DNA of 8,485 bases from a virus: UHGV virus genome UHGV-0302546; one strand, 5' to 3'. Both the position numbers and the translations under genes were made by a program. This document shows, in pieces, positions 1 through 8,485 of this stretch. Position 1 is the first letter of the stretch, and each line of letters begins with the position of its first letter. The notes under the pieces are model-generated. The model ran no database searches, was not told the origin of the DNA, and was given only the letters and a program-made list of their open reading frames with translations.

Positions 1-336
1 AACCAGACGGCAGAAAGCATGCGCCACGGTGAACGAAAACGAGCCAAACTGTGATACCAGTCCGGCAGCCCTGCCCCTGTCAGCGAGAGATAAATCCGTG
101 CAGTTAATTCCGTAAATCACACGGTCAACCTGCGTGTTACGCGGCAATGCGAGCTGTGCAGATAAGGTCCCGACCTCATCACGATACTGGCGGGAAAGCG
201 TGGCAAGGTTGCGGGTGGCAACATCGCGCTCAGTCCGAAAATGCTCACGTTCGGGCAGCGTCAGGCAGGGACGACCAAGGGCAACGGATGCCGCGTCGAT
301 GGCGTTATACGCTGTAAGGATGGCTGATTCAGTCAT
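1..336 (-). CDS. N-terminal 112 codons of a protein transcribed divergently from the RHH-like genes; probably the N-terminus of the replication initiator (continues past window start)
   Basis: Minus-strand frame from ATG at 336..334 is open to position 1 with no stop (checked codon by codon) and has coding-like GC-rich composition. The plus-strand ORF 134..382 is its shadow. No Shine-Dalgarno upstream, so start is uncertain (alternative GTG at 357). Frame is contiguous with the replication gene at 8485 if the sequence is circular or tandem. Confidence 0.5.
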   Translation of the reverse strand, partial: MTESAILTAYNAIDAASVALGRPCLTLPEREHFRTERDVATRNLATLSRQYRDEVGTLSAQLALPRNTQVDRVIYGINCTDLSLADRGRAAGLVSQFGSFSFTVAHAFCRLV

Positions 337-360
337 AAAAACGAATAAAAAACGCACTGA

Positions 361-437
361 TGTTAAAGTGTTAACAGGTTAACACTCATAATTTTTATGG
401 GTCAAGTGAAAATGTTGTCTTGTTAAACTGTTAACAG
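361..437. promoter_or_regulatory. Divergent promoter/operator region with iterated GTTAAM hexamers
   Basis: GTTAAA/GTTAAC hexamers at 362, 370, 378 and again at 422, 430, each spaced 8 bp. 368..385 GTGTTAACAGGTTAACAC is a 16/18 palindrome. Lies between the divergent ORFs starting at 336 (-) and 451 (+). Candidate -10 CATAAT at 387..392 (+) and -35 TTGACC at 405..400 (-); exact promoters not resolved. Confidence 0.5.
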
Positions 438-450
438 CGGAGATGAACGA

Positions 451-633
451 ATGAAAAGAAAGGCAATAGCAATTACAGAATCAACATATCTGGATATTAC
501 TAGGATAGCCCTTGAGATAAGCCAAAAAACAGGGCAAATAGTTACATGGTCGGAAGTTGTACACTTTATGATAAAAAACTACTTAAACGACGCAAAACAA
601 GACATGATCCACCAAAGAAACCAAAAAAAATAA
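451..633 (+). CDS. Small (60 aa) putative ribbon-helix-helix DNA-binding protein (candidate phage repressor)
   Basis: ATG at 451 with GGAG at 439..442 (8-nt spacer). Sequence shows a predicted N-terminal beta-strand (AIAITE), helix, K-T-G turn, then helix TWSEVVHFMIKNYL, the RHH (Arc/CopG/MetJ-like) pattern. Paralogous to the 705..917 ORF. Confidence 0.6.
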   Translation: MKRKAIAITESTYLDITRIALEISQKTGQIVTWSEVVHFMIKNYLNDAKQDMIHQRNQKK

Positions 634-684
634 CATAGTAGTTACCTATCGATACGAAGATTCCTAAGAAGCAATATATTGACA
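619..684 (+). repeat. Direct repeat copy A (about 60 bp) spanning the stop codon of ORF 451..633
   Basis: taacatagtagttacctatcgatacgaagattcctaagaagcaatat (631..677) matches 1160..1205 at about 90%, with an identical 21-bp core agttacctatcgatacgaagatt... Contains the 8-bp palindrome TATCGATA. The preceding A-rich stretch is also shared. Confidence 0.7.
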
Positions 685-704
685 GGACATAGAGGTAAAC
701 TGTG

Positions 705-917
705 ATGAAAAAAGAAACAAAGCGCGGAGACACAACTGTAAGAATCAACGAAGACAGAAAATTGGAGCTAAAACGAAGAGTGCTAGAAATCGGCAATAAG
801 ACCGGTGAGATACTAAAACCATCTGAAATAGTTAATCACTTAATAGACAATTACTTAGATGAGGCCGTGAAAGATTTAATAAGCAGAGAAGAACTTAAGA
901 AAAAAAGAGCAATGTGA
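705..917 (+). CDS. Small (70 aa) putative ribbon-helix-helix DNA-binding protein, paralog of ORF 451..633
   Basis: ATG at 705 (GTG at 702 also in frame) with AGAGG at 691..695. TVRINEDRKLELKRRVLEIGNKTGEILKPSEIVNHLIDNYL aligns with ISQKTGQIVTWSEVVHFMIKNYL of ORF1 (about 15/26 identical in the helix-turn-helix B segment). Confidence 0.6.
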   Translation: MKKETKRGDTTVRINEDRKLELKRRVLEIGNKTGEILKPSEIVNHLIDNYLDEAVKDLISREELKKKRAM

Positions 918-973
918 TTCCTTTCCCGGCATCGAACAGACGGGCTGACAAAGATCAAACAGAGGTAGTAAAA

Positions 974-1162
974 ATGCCAACAAAGCACATAAACGATGTT
1001 TTATGGAGAAAGGTAGAGAAAGAAACTGTAAAAGTGGTAACAACACTGGCAATACCAGTAAAAGATACCAAAGTTTTAGAATGGATAATCGCAAAAGGAC
1101 TGGAGTCTATAACAGAAGATGACTACAGGAAATTTGCAAAGACGGATGCAACAAAAAAATAA
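974..1162 (+). CDS. Small (62 aa) protein, possibly a third divergent RHH-like paralog
   Basis: ATG at 974 with AGAGG at 961..965 (8-nt spacer). The tracked start at 914 is a GTG overlapping the previous stop and is less likely. Ends in ..KK-stop followed by repeat copy B, exactly as ORF1 ends before copy A. RHH-like pattern (..IPVKDTKVLEWIIAKGL) is weak. Confidence 0.45.
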   Translation: MPTKHINDVLWRKVEKETVKVVTTLAIPVKDTKVLEWIIAKGLESITEDDYRKFAKTDATKK

Positions 1163-1212
1163 CATTATAGTTACCTATCGATACGAAGATTGCTAGAAGC
1201 AATATGCAGACA
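1149..1212 (+). repeat. Direct repeat copy B (about 60 bp) spanning the stop codon of ORF 974..1162
   Basis: taacattatagttacctatcgatacgaagattgctagaagcaatat (1160..1205) matches copy A; the two diverge after ..agaagcaatat. Confidence 0.7.
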
Positions 1213-1359
1213 ACCAGTGACTTAATTCTTGACCTGCTGATAAAGCATTTTGTTGTTGGCAGCATCACAGGCATGACAATATTCAGCCTGATAACGCTTG
1301 TCCCACCGTTGGTGATGACCATACACAACAAACTAAGTAAGGACACTGAAATCCTTTAA
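1204..1359 (+). CDS. Possible small (51 aa) hydrophobic membrane peptide; could be non-coding
   Basis: ATG at 1204 created at the 3' edge of repeat copy B, open to TAA at 1357..1359. Translation MQTTSDLILDLLIKHFVVGSITGMTIFSLITLVPPLVMTIHNKLSKDTEIL has one predicted TM segment. Only a weak SD (GAAG, 4-nt spacer). Below the 60-aa cut-off of the ORF track. Confidence 0.2.
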   Translation: MQTTSDLILDLLIKHFVVGSITGMTIFSLITLVPPLVMTIHNKLSKDTEIL

Positions 1360-1364
1360 GGTTC

Positions 1365-1458
1365 AGTGCGCACAATGACGTTATGTATAAAAAGGCCGCT
1401 GCGGTGGAGAGTATCGCAGCGGCCTTTTCAACATAACGCGTGTCACATTATGCGCACT
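1365..1458. other. Candidate XerCD-dependent attP: two inverted dif-like sites flanking a GC hairpin
   Basis: Site 1 (+, 1365..1391): AGTGCGCACAA-TGACG-TTATGTATAAA. Site 2 (-, 1458..1426): AGTGCGCATAA-TGTGACACGCG-TTATGTTGAAA. Compared with E. coli dif GGTGCGCATAA-TGTATA-TTATGTTAAAT, site 2 shares an exact 13-nt run GTGCGCATAATGT and a 9/11 XerD-arm. The arms of the two sites are mutually complementary, so a single strand can fold into a long hairpin with an asymmetric internal bubble. Confidence 0.5.
1394..1424. terminator. Perfect 9-bp GC stem-loop flanked by A5 and T4: possible bidirectional rho-independent terminator and tip of the attP hairpin
   Basis: GGCCGCTGC (1394..1402), 13-nt loop, GCAGCGGCC (1416..1424). 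T-tract follows on the plus strand (1425..1428) and on the minus strand (complement of 1389..1393). Sits 3' of gIV (-) and 3' of the plus-strand small-gene cluster. Confidence 0.45.
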
Positions 1459-1511
1459 GACGTTGTGGTGGGTAAACTGAGATGCCGCGTCCTGATAATC
1501 CCGGTCGGCAC

Positions 1512-4484: not shown

Positions 4485-5747
4485 TTACCCCCTGTCAACA
4501 AAAAGAACACGACGAACAATAAAATAACAACGCAAAGTCGTTAATGCATAAAGAGCATACTCTAATAAAGGCCTGATAATGTCATCATAAACTGAAGCAA
4601 AATCAGATGTGTCAATTGTAAAATACAACCCATTTATTCCCGGAAATTCAATCTGAACTGGCTGAGCACCAGAACGACGCAGTTCACCAGTTAAAAGTAA
4701 TTTATCAAAATTAATATAAAGCCACTCATCAGGAAGAAGGCTGAAAAGCCTGTCAGCAAATGAAGACATATCATCCTGTTCAGGCGTTACAGAATGAATT
4801 AATTCATTTAACTGTGAATCATAAGAACTAACCGCACTGGTAATATCATCCTGAGAAACAGAAAAAGCATTATTTAAATCATTCACTGAAACCCAAATAC
4901 GCTGCAACCAGCCAAGAATATCACCAAGCCAGCCGTCGCCGGAGGAACTGCCACCGCCTGAGCTACCGCCACCGGAACTACCACCACCTGAGCTGCCGCC
5001 GCCTGAGTTACCACCACCGGAACTGCCGCCACCTGAGCTACCACCGCCAGAACTGCCACCACCTGAGCTACCGCCGCCTGAGTTACCACCACCGGAACTG
5101 CCACCACCTGAGCTACCGCCATCCTCCTTATCATCGGAGAATGCAGGATCTACAGCAACTGGTTTCCAGTTGGCAGTACAAACCGTATCATCATCGGGAT
5201 TACAAATAAAAGGATTGCCGGTTGCCTCATAAATACACCCCTGCACATTAACATAACGGGTCCCGTCATCACCTTTATAAACACCAGGAAAAGTCATACC
5301 ATCAAGAACCGGACGAGAAAGACAAATCTCGTCAGTTGGCGGCTTATTATATTCAGGTGTCAAATCCCCCTCACCACCCTGAAAATCAAGAGTGCAGGTT
5401 TCCCACTCTCGCTTCTCTAAATCCCAGACTTTATATGCGGACCACCGGGCATGGACAAAAACCCCAACGGTGGAAGGCGCGCTAGACGGGGCTGATAGCT
5501 TACTACCGCAATAATGAATTATTCCGGAGCACGCGTCGTAACCACCGGAACCACAAAAAATATGACCAGCACCCCTGGCTAATTTAATCGATGCTCCCGC
5601 ATCTGAATAAGCTGTTCTGCAGGATAAACGGCCAAAACACTGAACAAGCTTATCCGGATCTTCTTTCTCCTCAGCAAAAGAAAGCGAAGAAAAGAACAAA
5701 AACAGAAGCGGAATAATAAAACGAATCAAGCAAAACACTCCTGGCAT
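4485..5747 (-). CDS. gIII: pIII-like adsorption (minor coat) protein, 420 aa
   Basis: Signal peptide MPGVFCLIRFIIPLLFLFFSSLSFA, then a Cys-rich N-terminal region. Segment RYVNVQGCIYEATGNPFICNPDDDTVCTANWKPVAV resembles the recalled M13 N1 (TolA-binding) domain RYANYEGCLWNATGVVVCTGDETQCYGTWVPIGL. Followed by a (GGGSS)n linker and a C-terminal membrane-anchor domain similar to the M13 pIII C-terminus. Confidence 0.85.
   Translation of the reverse strand: MPGVFCLIRFIIPLLFLFFSSLSFAEEKEDPDKLVQCFGRLSCRTAYSDAGASIKLARGAGHIFCGSGGYDACSGIIHYCGSKLSAPSSAPSTVGVFVHARWSAYKVWDLEKREWETCTLDFQGGEGDLTPEYNKPPTDEICLSRPVLDGMTFPGVYKGDDGTRYVNVQGCIYEATGNPFICNPDDDTVCTANWKPVAVDPAFSDDKEDGGSSGGGSSGGGNSGGGSSGGGSSGGGSSGGGSSGGGNSGGGSSGGGSSGGGSSGGGSSSGDGWLGDILGWLQRIWVSVNDLNNAFSVSQDDITSAVSSYDSQLNELIHSVTPEQDDMSSFADRLFSLLPDEWLYINFDKLLLTGELRRSGAQPVQIEFPGINGLYFTIDTSDFASVYDDIIRPLLEYALYALTTLRCYFIVRRVLFVDRG
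4938..5120 (-). repeat. Tandem 15-bp (GGGSS/GGGNS) repeats, about 12 units, including a duplicated 75-bp higher-order unit, inside gIII
   Basis: Plus strand shows repeated ccacctgagctaccg-type 15-mers; the stretch gccgcctgagttaccaccaccggaactgcc occurs twice 75 bp apart. Encodes the Gly/Ser linker of pIII. Confidence 0.85.

Positions 5748-6820: not shown

Positions 6821-8485
<1,665 letters not shown>

What the first reader, a model, noticed from the sequence alone, without database searches (positions are those of the whole stretch)
619..1212. Duplicated ~60-bp element placed identically at the 3' end of two small genes
The two copies (about 619..684 and 1149..1212) are about 90% identical with a 21-bp identical core containing the palindrome TATCGATA. 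Each begins in the A-rich last codons and stop codon of a small ORF (..KK-stop) and ends where the next ORF begins. This looks like a module-boundary element: a relic of gene-cassette duplication, a recombination site for swapping regulator cassettes, or a shared regulatory element for the downstream genes. It has no hairpin or T-tract, so it is not an obvious terminator.
Basis: seen in the sequence. Interest (0 to 1): 0.45.

Follow-up and report, generated by a model that had tools for sequence, protein, structure and literature searches.

The report
Duplicated spacer from stacked regulator cassettes
The repeat is real, but it is just the short spacer in front of a small membrane-protein gene, present twice because this E. 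coli filamentous prophage joined regulator-gene cassettes from two related phages; it is an ordinary recombination scar, not a new kind of element.

Summary
The repeat is confirmed: 624-677 and 1153-1205 match at 50 of 54 columns, with a 24-nt identical core and one 1-nt indel. This is far beyond chance. The window is one complete 8485-nt unit of an E. coli filamentous prophage integrated at dif. The element (E) is the spacer between the last small regulator gene and ORF4, a conserved 51-aa membrane-protein gene. Related prophages carry one E each, in three layouts: P1-ORF1-E-ORF4, P3-ORF3-E-ORF4 and P2-ORF2-ORF3-E-ORF4. The window carries P1-ORF1-E-ORF2-ORF3-E-ORF4. Its backbone and copy B are 97-100% identical to the ORF3-only type. 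P1-ORF1-copy A is 94-99% identical to the ORF1-only type, whose backbone is only 91-93% identical. The 7.4% difference between the copies therefore equals the divergence of two phage lineages. The copies are two lineage versions of one spacer, stacked by recombination, and not a duplication within this genome. The left edge is an A-run plus TAA that both gene families have natively. The right edge of copy A is a blunt junction at ORF4's start codon. I found no promoter, terminator, stable fold, Rfam match or copy outside this prophage family. The palindrome is broken in 8 copies. The dedicated-site and regulatory readings are not. Interest is low to moderate.

The parts
624..677 (+). E copy A. 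It comprises the A8 run and TAA stop of ORF1, a 40-nt spacer, and AAGAAGCAATAT. It ends exactly where ORF4's ATG would be and is joined there to the ribosome-binding segment of ORF2.
   Evidence: This haplotype is identical in all 10 ORF1->ORF2 copies found. It is 94% identical to the E of ORF1-only phages.
1153..1205 (+). E copy B. It comprises the A7 run and TAA stop of ORF3, the spacer, and the first bases of the ORF4 start codon (ATG 1204-1206).
   Evidence: It is 100% identical to the E of the ORF3-only prophage L006.
451..633 (+). ORF1, a 60-aa small regulator candidate (PHROG 2503). It is the first gene divergent from Rep and is cognate to the P1 region.
   Evidence: Homologues P0002 and P0003 sit in the same position and keep the GTTAACA repeats upstream.
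337..450 (.). P1, the divergent control region between Rep and ORF1. It holds TGTTAACA-type repeats at 361-385 and 421-437.
   Evidence: families D3 and I4; 10 matches against 3.6 expected, clustered here. The repeats are conserved upstream of distant ORF1 homologues.
677..704 (+). Ribosome-binding segment of ORF2 (GGACATAGAGG...), joined to the end of copy A with at most 1 nt of overlap. ORF2's native promoter and operator region is absent.
   Evidence: Homology to L003 starts at window 677. See the alignment and the native P2 regions of L003 and L005.
705..917 (+). ORF2, 70 aa, a paralogue of ORF1 (42% identity). In other prophages it is the first gene next to its own control region P2.
974..1162 (+). 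ORF3, a 62-aa member of a widespread inovirus family (PHROG 5219), which UniRef names 'Repressor' for some relatives. In the window it keeps its ribosome-binding site (from 957) but not its own control region.
1204..1359 (+). ORF4, a 51-aa hydrophobic protein. It is the conserved gene that E leads into.
   Evidence: The ORF is intact and 51 aa long in all variants at 91-100% nucleotide identity. It is 33% identical (E = 5e-9) to an annotated 57-aa protein in the same position in L003 and L009.
1189..1203 (+). A 6-bp stem, ATTGCT-AGA-AGCAAT, directly before the ORF4 ATG. Its loop holds the weak Shine-Dalgarno-like AGAAG. The stem is intact in every copy that precedes ORF4 and broken (ATTCCT) in copy A.
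1363..1460 (.). Inverted pair of dif-like sequences around a GC-rich hairpin: the phage attachment region, which closes the conserved right-hand backbone E-ORF4-att.
   Evidence: I8, I9; ssDNA fold of -40.2 kcal/mol, z = -11. The prophages lie next to hipBA in tandem arrays.
1..336 (-). 5' part of the Rep gene (Phage_GPA replication endonuclease, 666 aa). The gene continues at 8485 down to 6821, so the window is one complete circularly permuted phage unit. Rep's start codon is the left edge of the swappable regulator module.
   Evidence: 666 aa and one terminal stop across the junction; the window end and start are contiguous in L004.

Best explanation
E is the intercistronic leader that links the last small regulator gene to ORF4, a conserved 51-aa membrane-protein gene next to the attachment site. 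The phage family is a set of dif-integrated E. coli inoviruses of the Ypf-phi/CUS-1 kind of organisation. E belongs to the conserved right-hand backbone (E-ORF4-att). That backbone flanks a swappable immunity or regulator module, which runs from the Rep start codon to the stop codon of the last regulator gene.

E occurs twice in the window because the phage is a recombinant. A segment P1-ORF1-E from an ORF1-type lineage, ending exactly at ORF4's start codon, was joined to a promoterless ORF2-ORF3-E-ORF4 segment on an ORF3-type backbone. The result is a three-regulator operon with one copy of E from each lineage. The left edge of the repeat is an A7-A9 run plus TAA that both gene families carry natively. 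This most likely served as the microhomology when ORF3 first came to sit upstream of E.

What is shown: the repeat, the alternative architectures, the segment-by-segment parentage, the junction positions, and the lack of promoter, terminator or fold signals. What is inferred: that the three genes are co-transcribed from P1; that ORF2 and ORF3, which have no cognate operator cluster in this phage, act in trans as extra immunity against competing phages; and the order of the recombination events.
For: (1) Architectures. Single-E phages are P1-ORF1-E-ORF4 (L001, L007, L008, L012, L013, L037, L038), P3-ORF3-E-ORF4 (L006) and P2-ORF2-ORF3-E-ORF4 (L005). Double-E phages all have the window's layout (L004, L010, L011, L036, L039-41).
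(2) Parentage. The window's Rep 5' end, ORF3, E_B, ORF4 and att are 97-100% identical to L006. P1, ORF1 and E_A are 97%, 99% and 94% identical to ORF1-only phages, whose Rep 5' end and ORF4 are only 92-93% and 91% identical. ORF2 is 96% identical to L005 and 89% to L003. E_A against E_B (92.6%) therefore matches the divergence between the two lineages.
(3) E is native to the ORF1 context. Distant ORF1 homologues (about 80% amino-acid identity) in L034 and L035 are followed by a short spacer ending GGAGATTGTTAA / GGAGATGCTTAA and then a 35-36-aa hydrophobic ORF. E keeps GAAGATTGCTAA at the aligned place.
(4) Junctions. Homology with L003 begins at window 677, right where homology between the copies ends, with an overlap of at most 1 nt, and only ORF2's ribosome-binding site was carried over. 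ORF3 was likewise appended to ORF2 with only its ribosome-binding site, from 957. ORF3-family genes natively end in an A-run plus stop but have unrelated downstream sequence.
(5) No independent function signal. There is no sigma-70-like or terminator-like site in E on either strand. RNA folding z-scores are -0.2 to -2.0 and ssDNA folds are -2 to -5 kcal/mol. There is no Rfam match. TATCGATA is TATAGATA in 8 copies.
(6) No mobility. E occurs only in 8 of 5426 complete E. coli genomes and always inside this prophage. It has no matches in GTDB species representatives, the phage collection or the plasmid collection, and the 2 matches in IMG/VR are the same phage.
(7) Mixed tandem arrays of such prophages exist at dif (L010). 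These provide the setting in which such joins can arise.
Against: Copy A is kept intact up to the exact position of ORF4's start codon, and it is identical in all 10 double-E copies seen. That is compatible with a single recent origin, but it does not exclude selection for something in it. The only match in the window to the ORF3-family operator-like motif TTCTWAGAA (one mismatch) lies inside copy A at 662-670; one such match is what chance predicts. Regulator function of ORF1-3 is not demonstrated: there is no Pfam hit and no significant structural match. The consensus promoter scan is crude and also failed to flag the P1 region, so a weak or non-canonical promoter inside E cannot be ruled out. 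The order of events cannot be fixed from the sample.
Confidence: 0.75

Rival explanations
1. E is a functional cis-regulatory element, such as an operator for one of the small regulators, an internal promoter, or an RNA processing or translation-control site. On this view selection keeps it in front of both ORF2-ORF3 and ORF4.
For: E has a 24-nt identical core with an 8-bp palindrome. The 6-bp stem next to the ORF4 start is intact in all 22 copies that precede ORF4. One near-match to the ORF3-family motif lies in copy A.
Against: No promoter-like or terminator-like site was found. Folding is not significant. The palindrome is broken in 8 natural copies of viable-looking prophages. Relatives L009, L034 and L035 conserve only the ribosome-binding portion. 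E is no better conserved than its flanks between lineages: 93-94% against 91-99%. The motif hit is at chance level.
Confidence: 0.12
2. The two copies are the relic of a tandem duplication of a gene-plus-spacer unit within this genome. The genes then diverged while the spacer was kept or homogenised.
For: ORF1 and ORF2 are paralogues at 42% identity, and the layout looks like repeated units.
Against: The genes that precede the two copies, ORF1 and ORF3, show no detectable similarity. Each copy with its flanks is 94-100% identical to a different single-copy lineage. The right edge of copy A is a blunt junction with sequence found upstream of ORF2 in phages that lack E.
Confidence: 0.05
3. E is a dedicated recombination site or hot spot at which regulator cassettes are inserted and excised. 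The single-E phages would then be E x E deletion products.
For: The ORF1-only phages are exactly 529 nt shorter at this place and carry one E whose flanks match the left side of copy A and the right side of copy B.
Against: Those phages have a backbone 7-9% diverged from the window's, so they are not its deletion derivatives. The phage encodes no recombinase. E has no attC-like fold and no resemblance to the phage's own dif-like site. There is no E upstream of ORF2 in its native contexts. No phage with an ORF3-type backbone and ORF1-E-ORF4 was seen among about 20 loci.
Confidence: 0.05
4. E encodes a 12-residue C-terminal extension, NNI(V/I)VTYRYED(C/S), reached from ORF1 or ORF3 by slippage in the A-run.
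For: The +1 frame is open in all copies and stops at the same place. Several differences between copies are synonymous in that frame. L009 reads NKTIIHYRHEDC* in the same frame. A-run length variants with different tails do exist in ORF3 relatives.
Against: The homologous bases in L034 are in a different frame because of a 1-nt indel. The conserved EDC* is the ribosome-binding motif GAAGATTGCTAA. A search of 5.8 billion proteins with the fused sequence found only the short forms. The antisense frame looks about as 'conserved' by hand inspection of the copies (sequences). There are too few substitutions for significance.
Confidence: 0.03

Closest known systems
Immunity (rstR / ig-2) module of CTX-phi and its heteroimmune variants (own knowledge: Kimsey and Waldor 1998; Davis et al. 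1999; cited in PMC8402870 and PMC4266046)
   Same: Both are dif-integrating inoviruses. In both, a small repressor gene lies divergent from the replication gene. Alternative, unrelated or highly diverged repressor-plus-operator segments occupy the same slot in otherwise near-identical phages, with sharp transitions to a conserved backbone. Both form tandem and mixed prophage arrays.
   Different: Here up to three regulator genes are stacked in one apparent operon, two of them without their own operator region. The conserved sequence to the right of the slot is therefore present twice. The proteins are unrelated in sequence to HTH-type RstR or Pf4r (no PDB sequence hit).
Ypf-phi of Yersinia pestis and CUS-1 of E. 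coli K1 (PMC4266046)
   Same: These share the overall organisation and lifestyle: inverted dif-like attP, tandem copies at dif, a repressor-position gene next to the replication gene, and unrelated small ORFs swapped at the ends of otherwise 99%-identical genomes.
   Different: Relatedness to Ypf-phi or CUS-1 was not tested: no Ypf-phi or CUS-1 sequence was compared directly, the whole window had no megablast match in the phage collection, and I did not check whether that collection holds them. No duplicated spacer is described for them.
Mosaic module junctions of temperate phages, i.e. modular evolution with joints at gene boundaries (own knowledge: Botstein 1980; Juhala et al. 2000)
   Same: Exchange of functional modules leaves junctions at or near gene boundaries. 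Conserved flanks serve as homology arms. Illegitimate joins are retained when they leave genes functional.
   Different: This is only a specific instance in a small inovirus. The scar is a 54-nt direct repeat.
Integron attC (59-base element)
   Same: Both are elements of about 60 bp at the 3' end of short, promoterless gene cassettes.
   Different: E has no folded imperfect palindrome, no RYYYAAC/GTTRRRY core sites and no integrase, and it is found only in one phage family.

Membership tests
Mosaic boundary of a phage immunity/regulator module (CTX-phi rstR-type slot) | Alternative regulator segments occupy the same slot in otherwise closely related phages, with sharp transitions to a conserved backbone | tested here: met
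   Four architectures share Rep on the left and E-ORF4-att on the right. The left transition is at the Rep start codon (window 336/337) and the right one at the A-run/TAA.
Mosaic boundary of a phage immunity/regulator module (CTX-phi rstR-type slot) | Operator-like repeats in the control region co-vary with the first regulator gene | tested here: met
   GTTAACA repeats go with ORF1 and its distant homologues. CGCATGCG-type repeats go with ORF2. TTCTWAGAA-type repeats go with ORF3 relatives of 48-83% identity.
Mosaic boundary of a phage immunity/regulator module (CTX-phi rstR-type slot) | The regulators repress replication or structural-gene transcription and confer superinfection immunity | not testable with these tools
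   This needs immunity and binding assays. The only pointers are position, the motifs, and the UniRef name 'Repressor' for ORF3 relatives.
Integron attC site | An imperfect palindrome that folds as single-stranded DNA, with paired core sites | tested here: not met
   ssDNA folds are -2.0 to -5.2 kcal/mol with z of -0.3 to -2.2 on either strand. Reading the sequence shows no RYYYAAC...GTTRRRY pair.
Integron attC site | An associated integron integrase and attI | tested here: not met
   The complete 8485-nt unit encodes only Rep, small regulators, and structural and assembly genes.
Intrinsic terminator | A GC-rich stem followed by a T-run | tested here: not met
   No terminator-like site lies in 300-1520 on either strand. 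The only stem is 6 bp, AT-rich and without a T-run.
Sigma-70 promoter | -35 and -10 hexamers at 16-18 nt spacing | tested here: not met
   No site inside E passes the scan's threshold on either strand. Copy B has a perfect TATAAT on the minus strand, but it has no usable -35 and is not conserved in copy A or in ORF1-only phages (sequence reading). The scan is crude, so this is weak negative evidence.
Dispersed small mobile repeat (MITE / REP-like) | Many copies in varied genomic contexts, with terminal inverted repeats and target duplications | tested here: not met
   E occurs at 20 places in 8 of 5426 E. coli genomes, always after ORF1 or ORF3 of this prophage. It is absent from the plasmid, phage and GTDB representative collections.
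Xer/dif-type recombination site | A 28-bp site with XerC and XerD arms around a 6-8-bp centre | tested here: not met
   E bears no resemblance to the phage's own dif-like pair at 1363-1460, which folds at -40 kcal/mol. This rests on sequence reading.
Programmed frameshift or slippage extension | The extension frame is conserved as coding in relatives, and extended products exist | tested here: not met
   The frame is not preserved in L034 because of a 1-nt indel. No fused protein was found among 5.8 billion sequences.
Ribbon-helix-helix regulators (for ORF1, ORF2, ORF3) | A sequence or fold match to RHH families (N-terminal strand plus two helices, dimeric) | tested here: inconclusive
   There is no Pfam hit at E <= 1. 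AlphaFold models (pLDDT 87-89) show an extended N-terminus followed by two or three helices. Foldseek against the PDB gives nothing below E = 2; the best hit for ORF3 is an RHH antitoxin at probability 0.12.

The most novel reading that the evidence does not exclude
The window phage has stacked promoterless regulator genes captured from two heteroimmune competitors (ORF2 and ORF3) behind its own repressor gene. One operon would then give a lysogen immunity against three inovirus immunity types that compete for the same dif site. The duplicated spacer would be the visible scar of this 'immunity stacking', and as a 54-bp repeat it would also allow the extra genes to be shed again.
Probability: 0.3. 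Interest if true: 0.5.

Novelty: new member of a known kind. Interest (0 to 1): 0.25.

Why it matters
For the element itself, little: it is a recombination scar made of an ordinary intercistronic leader. The surrounding picture is more useful. It gives a clean, small example of how dif-integrating filamentous prophages of E. coli exchange and accumulate regulator cassettes. The module edges fall at the Rep start codon, at an A-run plus stop codon, and at ORF4's start codon. If the extra regulators work in trans, one prophage would exclude several competing inoviruses. That bears on polylysogeny and on the make-up of prophage arrays at dif.

Tried and rejected
1. Frameshift-accessed peptide encoded by E. 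This looked attractive because of synonymous-looking differences and L009's NKTIIHYRHEDC*. I rejected it because the homologous bases are in another frame in L034, because the conserved part is the Shine-Dalgarno region, and because no fused proteins exist.
2. Single-E phages as E x E deletion derivatives of the window type. I rejected this because their backbone is 7-9% diverged.
3. Promoter or terminator: the scans were negative.
4. Structured RNA, or an ssDNA site of the attC, origin or packaging-signal kind: folds were not significant and there was no Rfam hit.
5. Mobile repeat: there are no copies outside the prophage.
6. E as an operator for ORF3: the single TTCTWAGAA-like hit in copy A is at chance level, and the motif is destroyed in copy B.
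7. Searches that gave little. The whole window against the phage collection found no match. ORF1 against GTDB representatives found none. Pfam found nothing for ORF1-4. PDB sequence and fold searches for ORF1 and ORF3 were not significant, so the RHH assignment stays an inference.

Full report
**What the window is.** The 8485 bases are one complete, circularly permuted unit of a filamentous phage.
- On the minus strand lie a 666-aa replication endonuclease (Pfam Phage_GPA in relatives), a 141-aa ORF of unassigned function, small coat-like ORFs, a glycine-serine-repeat adsorption-like protein, a Zot-family assembly protein and a secretin.
- The Rep gene starts at 336 and runs off the left end. 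It continues from 8485 to 6821 as one open frame of 666 codons. The window's end and start are contiguous in tandem prophage copies.
- Nearly identical prophages sit in E. coli chromosomes beside hipBA, usually as tandem arrays.
- The plus strand of 337-1460 carries a control region P1 with TGTTAACA-type repeats, then three small ORFs: ORF1 451-633, ORF2 705-917 and ORF3 974-1162. ORF4 (1204-1359) encodes a 51-aa hydrophobic protein.
- An inverted pair of dif-like sequences follows, and it folds strongly as single-stranded DNA (-40 kcal/mol, z = -11).

**The observation.** The repeat is real.
- Positions 624-677 and 1153-1205 align over 54 columns with 50 identities and one 1-nt indel.
- The score is 77 bits (E = 4.7e-16). 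The best direct repeat in 100 simulated windows scored 34.6 bits.
- The identical core is 24 nt, not 21, and includes TATCGATA.
- Both copies start in the A-run and TAA of a small ORF. Copy B ends in the ATG of ORF4. Copy A ends 25-28 nt before ORF2.

**Where else the element occurs.** I call the element E.
- E is found in only 8 of 5426 complete E. coli genomes, at 20 places, always in this prophage family.
- It is found in two IMG/VR contigs of the same phage.
- It is absent from the phage and plasmid collections and from GTDB species representatives.
- It is therefore neither a dispersed repeat nor a general cassette-boundary signal.

**Comparative anatomy.** Four layouts share Rep on the left and E-ORF4-att on the right.
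- alpha: P1-ORF1-E-ORF4 (L001, L007, L008, L012, L013, L037, L038).
- beta: P2-ORF2-ORF3-E-ORF4 (L005).
- gamma: P3-ORF3-E-ORF4 (L006).
- delta: P1-ORF1-E-ORF2-ORF3-E-ORF4 (the window, L004, L010, L011, L036, L039-41).

A different inovirus with another type of Rep (L003) has P2 with an ORF2-like gene and an ORF4 homologue, but no E. The variable module runs from Rep's start codon (window 336/337) to the stop codon of the last small gene. P1, P2 and P3 are unrelated and carry different repeated motifs.

**What E is.**
- More distant ORF1 homologues (about 80% amino-acid identity, L034 and L035) are followed by a short spacer ending GGAGATTGTTAA or GGAGATGCTTAA. A 35-36-aa hydrophobic ORF comes immediately after. 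E keeps GAAGATTGCTAA at the aligned position, in front of ORF4.
- ORF4 is intact and 51 aa long in all variants, and it has an annotated homologue in L003 and L009.
- E is therefore the native intercistronic leader between ORF1 and the small membrane-protein gene.
- ORF3-family genes in other bacteria end in a similar A-run plus stop but have unrelated downstream sequence. The ORF3-E junction thus arose by a join within that shared A-run/TAA.

**Why E is present twice.** Segment identities decide this.
- The window's Rep 5' end, ORF3, copy B, ORF4 and att are 97-100% identical to the gamma phage L006.
- P1, ORF1 and copy A are 97%, 99% and 94% identical to alpha phages. The Rep 5' end and ORF4 of those phages are only 92-93% and 91% identical to the window's.
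- ORF2 is 96% identical to beta (L005) and 89% to L003.
- The 7.4% difference between the two copies therefore equals the alpha-gamma lineage divergence. The copies are two lineage versions of one locus, brought together by recombination.
- Homology between the copies ends at 677, and homology to the sequence just upstream of ORF2 in L003 begins there, with an overlap of at most 1 nt. Only ORF2's ribosome-binding site was brought along, not P2.
- ORF3 is attached to ORF2 in the same manner, with only its ribosome-binding site, from 957.
- Mixed tandem arrays exist in which such joins could arise: L010 has a delta phage next to a remnant of the L003 type.
- The alpha phages are not deletion derivatives of delta, because their backbone is 7-9% diverged.

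**Tests for an independent function of E.**
- No promoter-like or terminator-like site lies in or next to either copy on either strand.
- RNA and ssDNA folds are weak, and there is no Rfam match.
- The palindrome is TATAGATA in 8 alpha copies.
- A 6-bp stem directly before the ORF4 ATG is intact in all 22 copies that precede ORF4. It is broken in copy A, which no longer precedes ORF4. This fits a leader that has lost its job, but it rests on a single substitution.
- I considered a 12-residue peptide in the +1 frame and rejected it. The frame is not preserved in L034, the conserved part is the Shine-Dalgarno region, and no fused proteins exist.

**The small proteins.**
- ORF1 and ORF2 are paralogues (42% identity) in PHROG 2503.
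- ORF3 is unrelated to them and belongs to PHROG 5219. Its relatives occur in Citrobacter, Salmonella, Providencia, Proteus, Pseudomonas and marine bacteria, and UniRef names some of them 'Repressor'.
- In its relatives ORF3 is the first gene divergent from a long minus-strand ORF in the position where Rep lies in the window (its identity was not checked), and it lies behind TTCTWAGAA-type repeats.
- The window has neither this motif cluster nor the P2 motif cluster. Only the P1 motif is clustered.
- A ribbon-helix-helix fold is suggested by the predicted extended N-terminus plus helices. It is not confirmed.
- The inference, still untested, is that ORF1 controls this phage while ORF2 and ORF3 act in trans on other phages.

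**Verdict.** The module-boundary idea is partly right. E is an ordinary leader sequence, duplicated as a scar of cassette stacking between two related lineages. It is not a dedicated recombination or regulatory element. I file it as a new member of a known kind, namely a mosaic junction flanking an inovirus immunity module. Interest is low to moderate, and it lies mostly in the three-regulator operon.

Noticed in passing
window 1-336 and 6821-8485, minus strand: The Rep (Phage_GPA replication endonuclease) gene wraps around the window ends: 666 codons with one terminal stop. The window is therefore a complete circularly permuted phage unit. An ORF list of the linear window shows only a truncated 550-aa version with a false GTG start.
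   Followed up: yes
window 1363-1460: Two dif-like sequences lie in inverted orientation around a perfect 14-bp GC-rich stem (1390-1428). As ssDNA the region folds at -40 kcal/mol (z = -11), like the folded attP of CTX-phi and Ypf-phi. The prophages lie beside hipBA, mostly as tandem arrays of two copies.
   Followed up: partly
window 361-385 and 421-437: TGTTAACA-type repeats lie in the Rep/ORF1 divergent region. They are conserved upstream of ORF1 homologues that are only about 80% identical (L034, L035), which makes them likely ORF1 operators. They are enriched in the window: 10 matches against 3.6 expected.
   Followed up: partly
L017-L033, the 160 nt upstream of the ORF3 homologues; L006 7510-7600: The ORF3 family (PHROG 5219, function unknown) is always preceded by several TTCTTAGA/TTCTAAGA palindromic motifs, in phages from many genera. 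This looks like a conserved operator for an uncharacterised inovirus repressor family.
   Followed up: partly
L017-L021 at about 2675-2690; proteins P0005, P0006, P0034: The A-run at the 3' end of ORF3-family genes varies in length between records (A8, A9 and others). This gives 62-, 73- and 97-aa products with different tails in Citrobacter, and 59- versus 81-aa products in Pseudomonas. The cause is either homopolymer sequencing error or real slippage variation.
   Followed up: no
window 4914-5138, minus-strand gene 4485-5747: The adsorption-protein-like gene has about eleven 15-nt units that encode GGGSS. The homologous gene ranges from 1233 to 1410 nt among the prophages seen, which suggests repeat-number variation.
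   Followed up: no
L010 10570-13400: In E. coli E300010 a window-type prophage lies next to a truncated inovirus of a different replication type (replication initiation factor domain). That neighbour carries P2 and an ORF2-like gene, between the phage and hipA. It is a mixed array of the kind that could generate the stacked operon.
   Followed up: partly
L009 3916-4482: A related prophage with an ORF1-like gene has a DUF2726-domain gene inserted between the diverged E remnant and the ORF4 homologue. This is another cargo insertion at the same boundary.
   Followed up: no
window 662-670: The only match in the window to the ORF3-family motif TTCTWAGAA (one mismatch, TCCTAAGAA) lies inside copy A. 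It is created in part by the G-to-C change that distinguishes copy A. The count is at chance level (1 found, 1.8 expected).
   Followed up: partly
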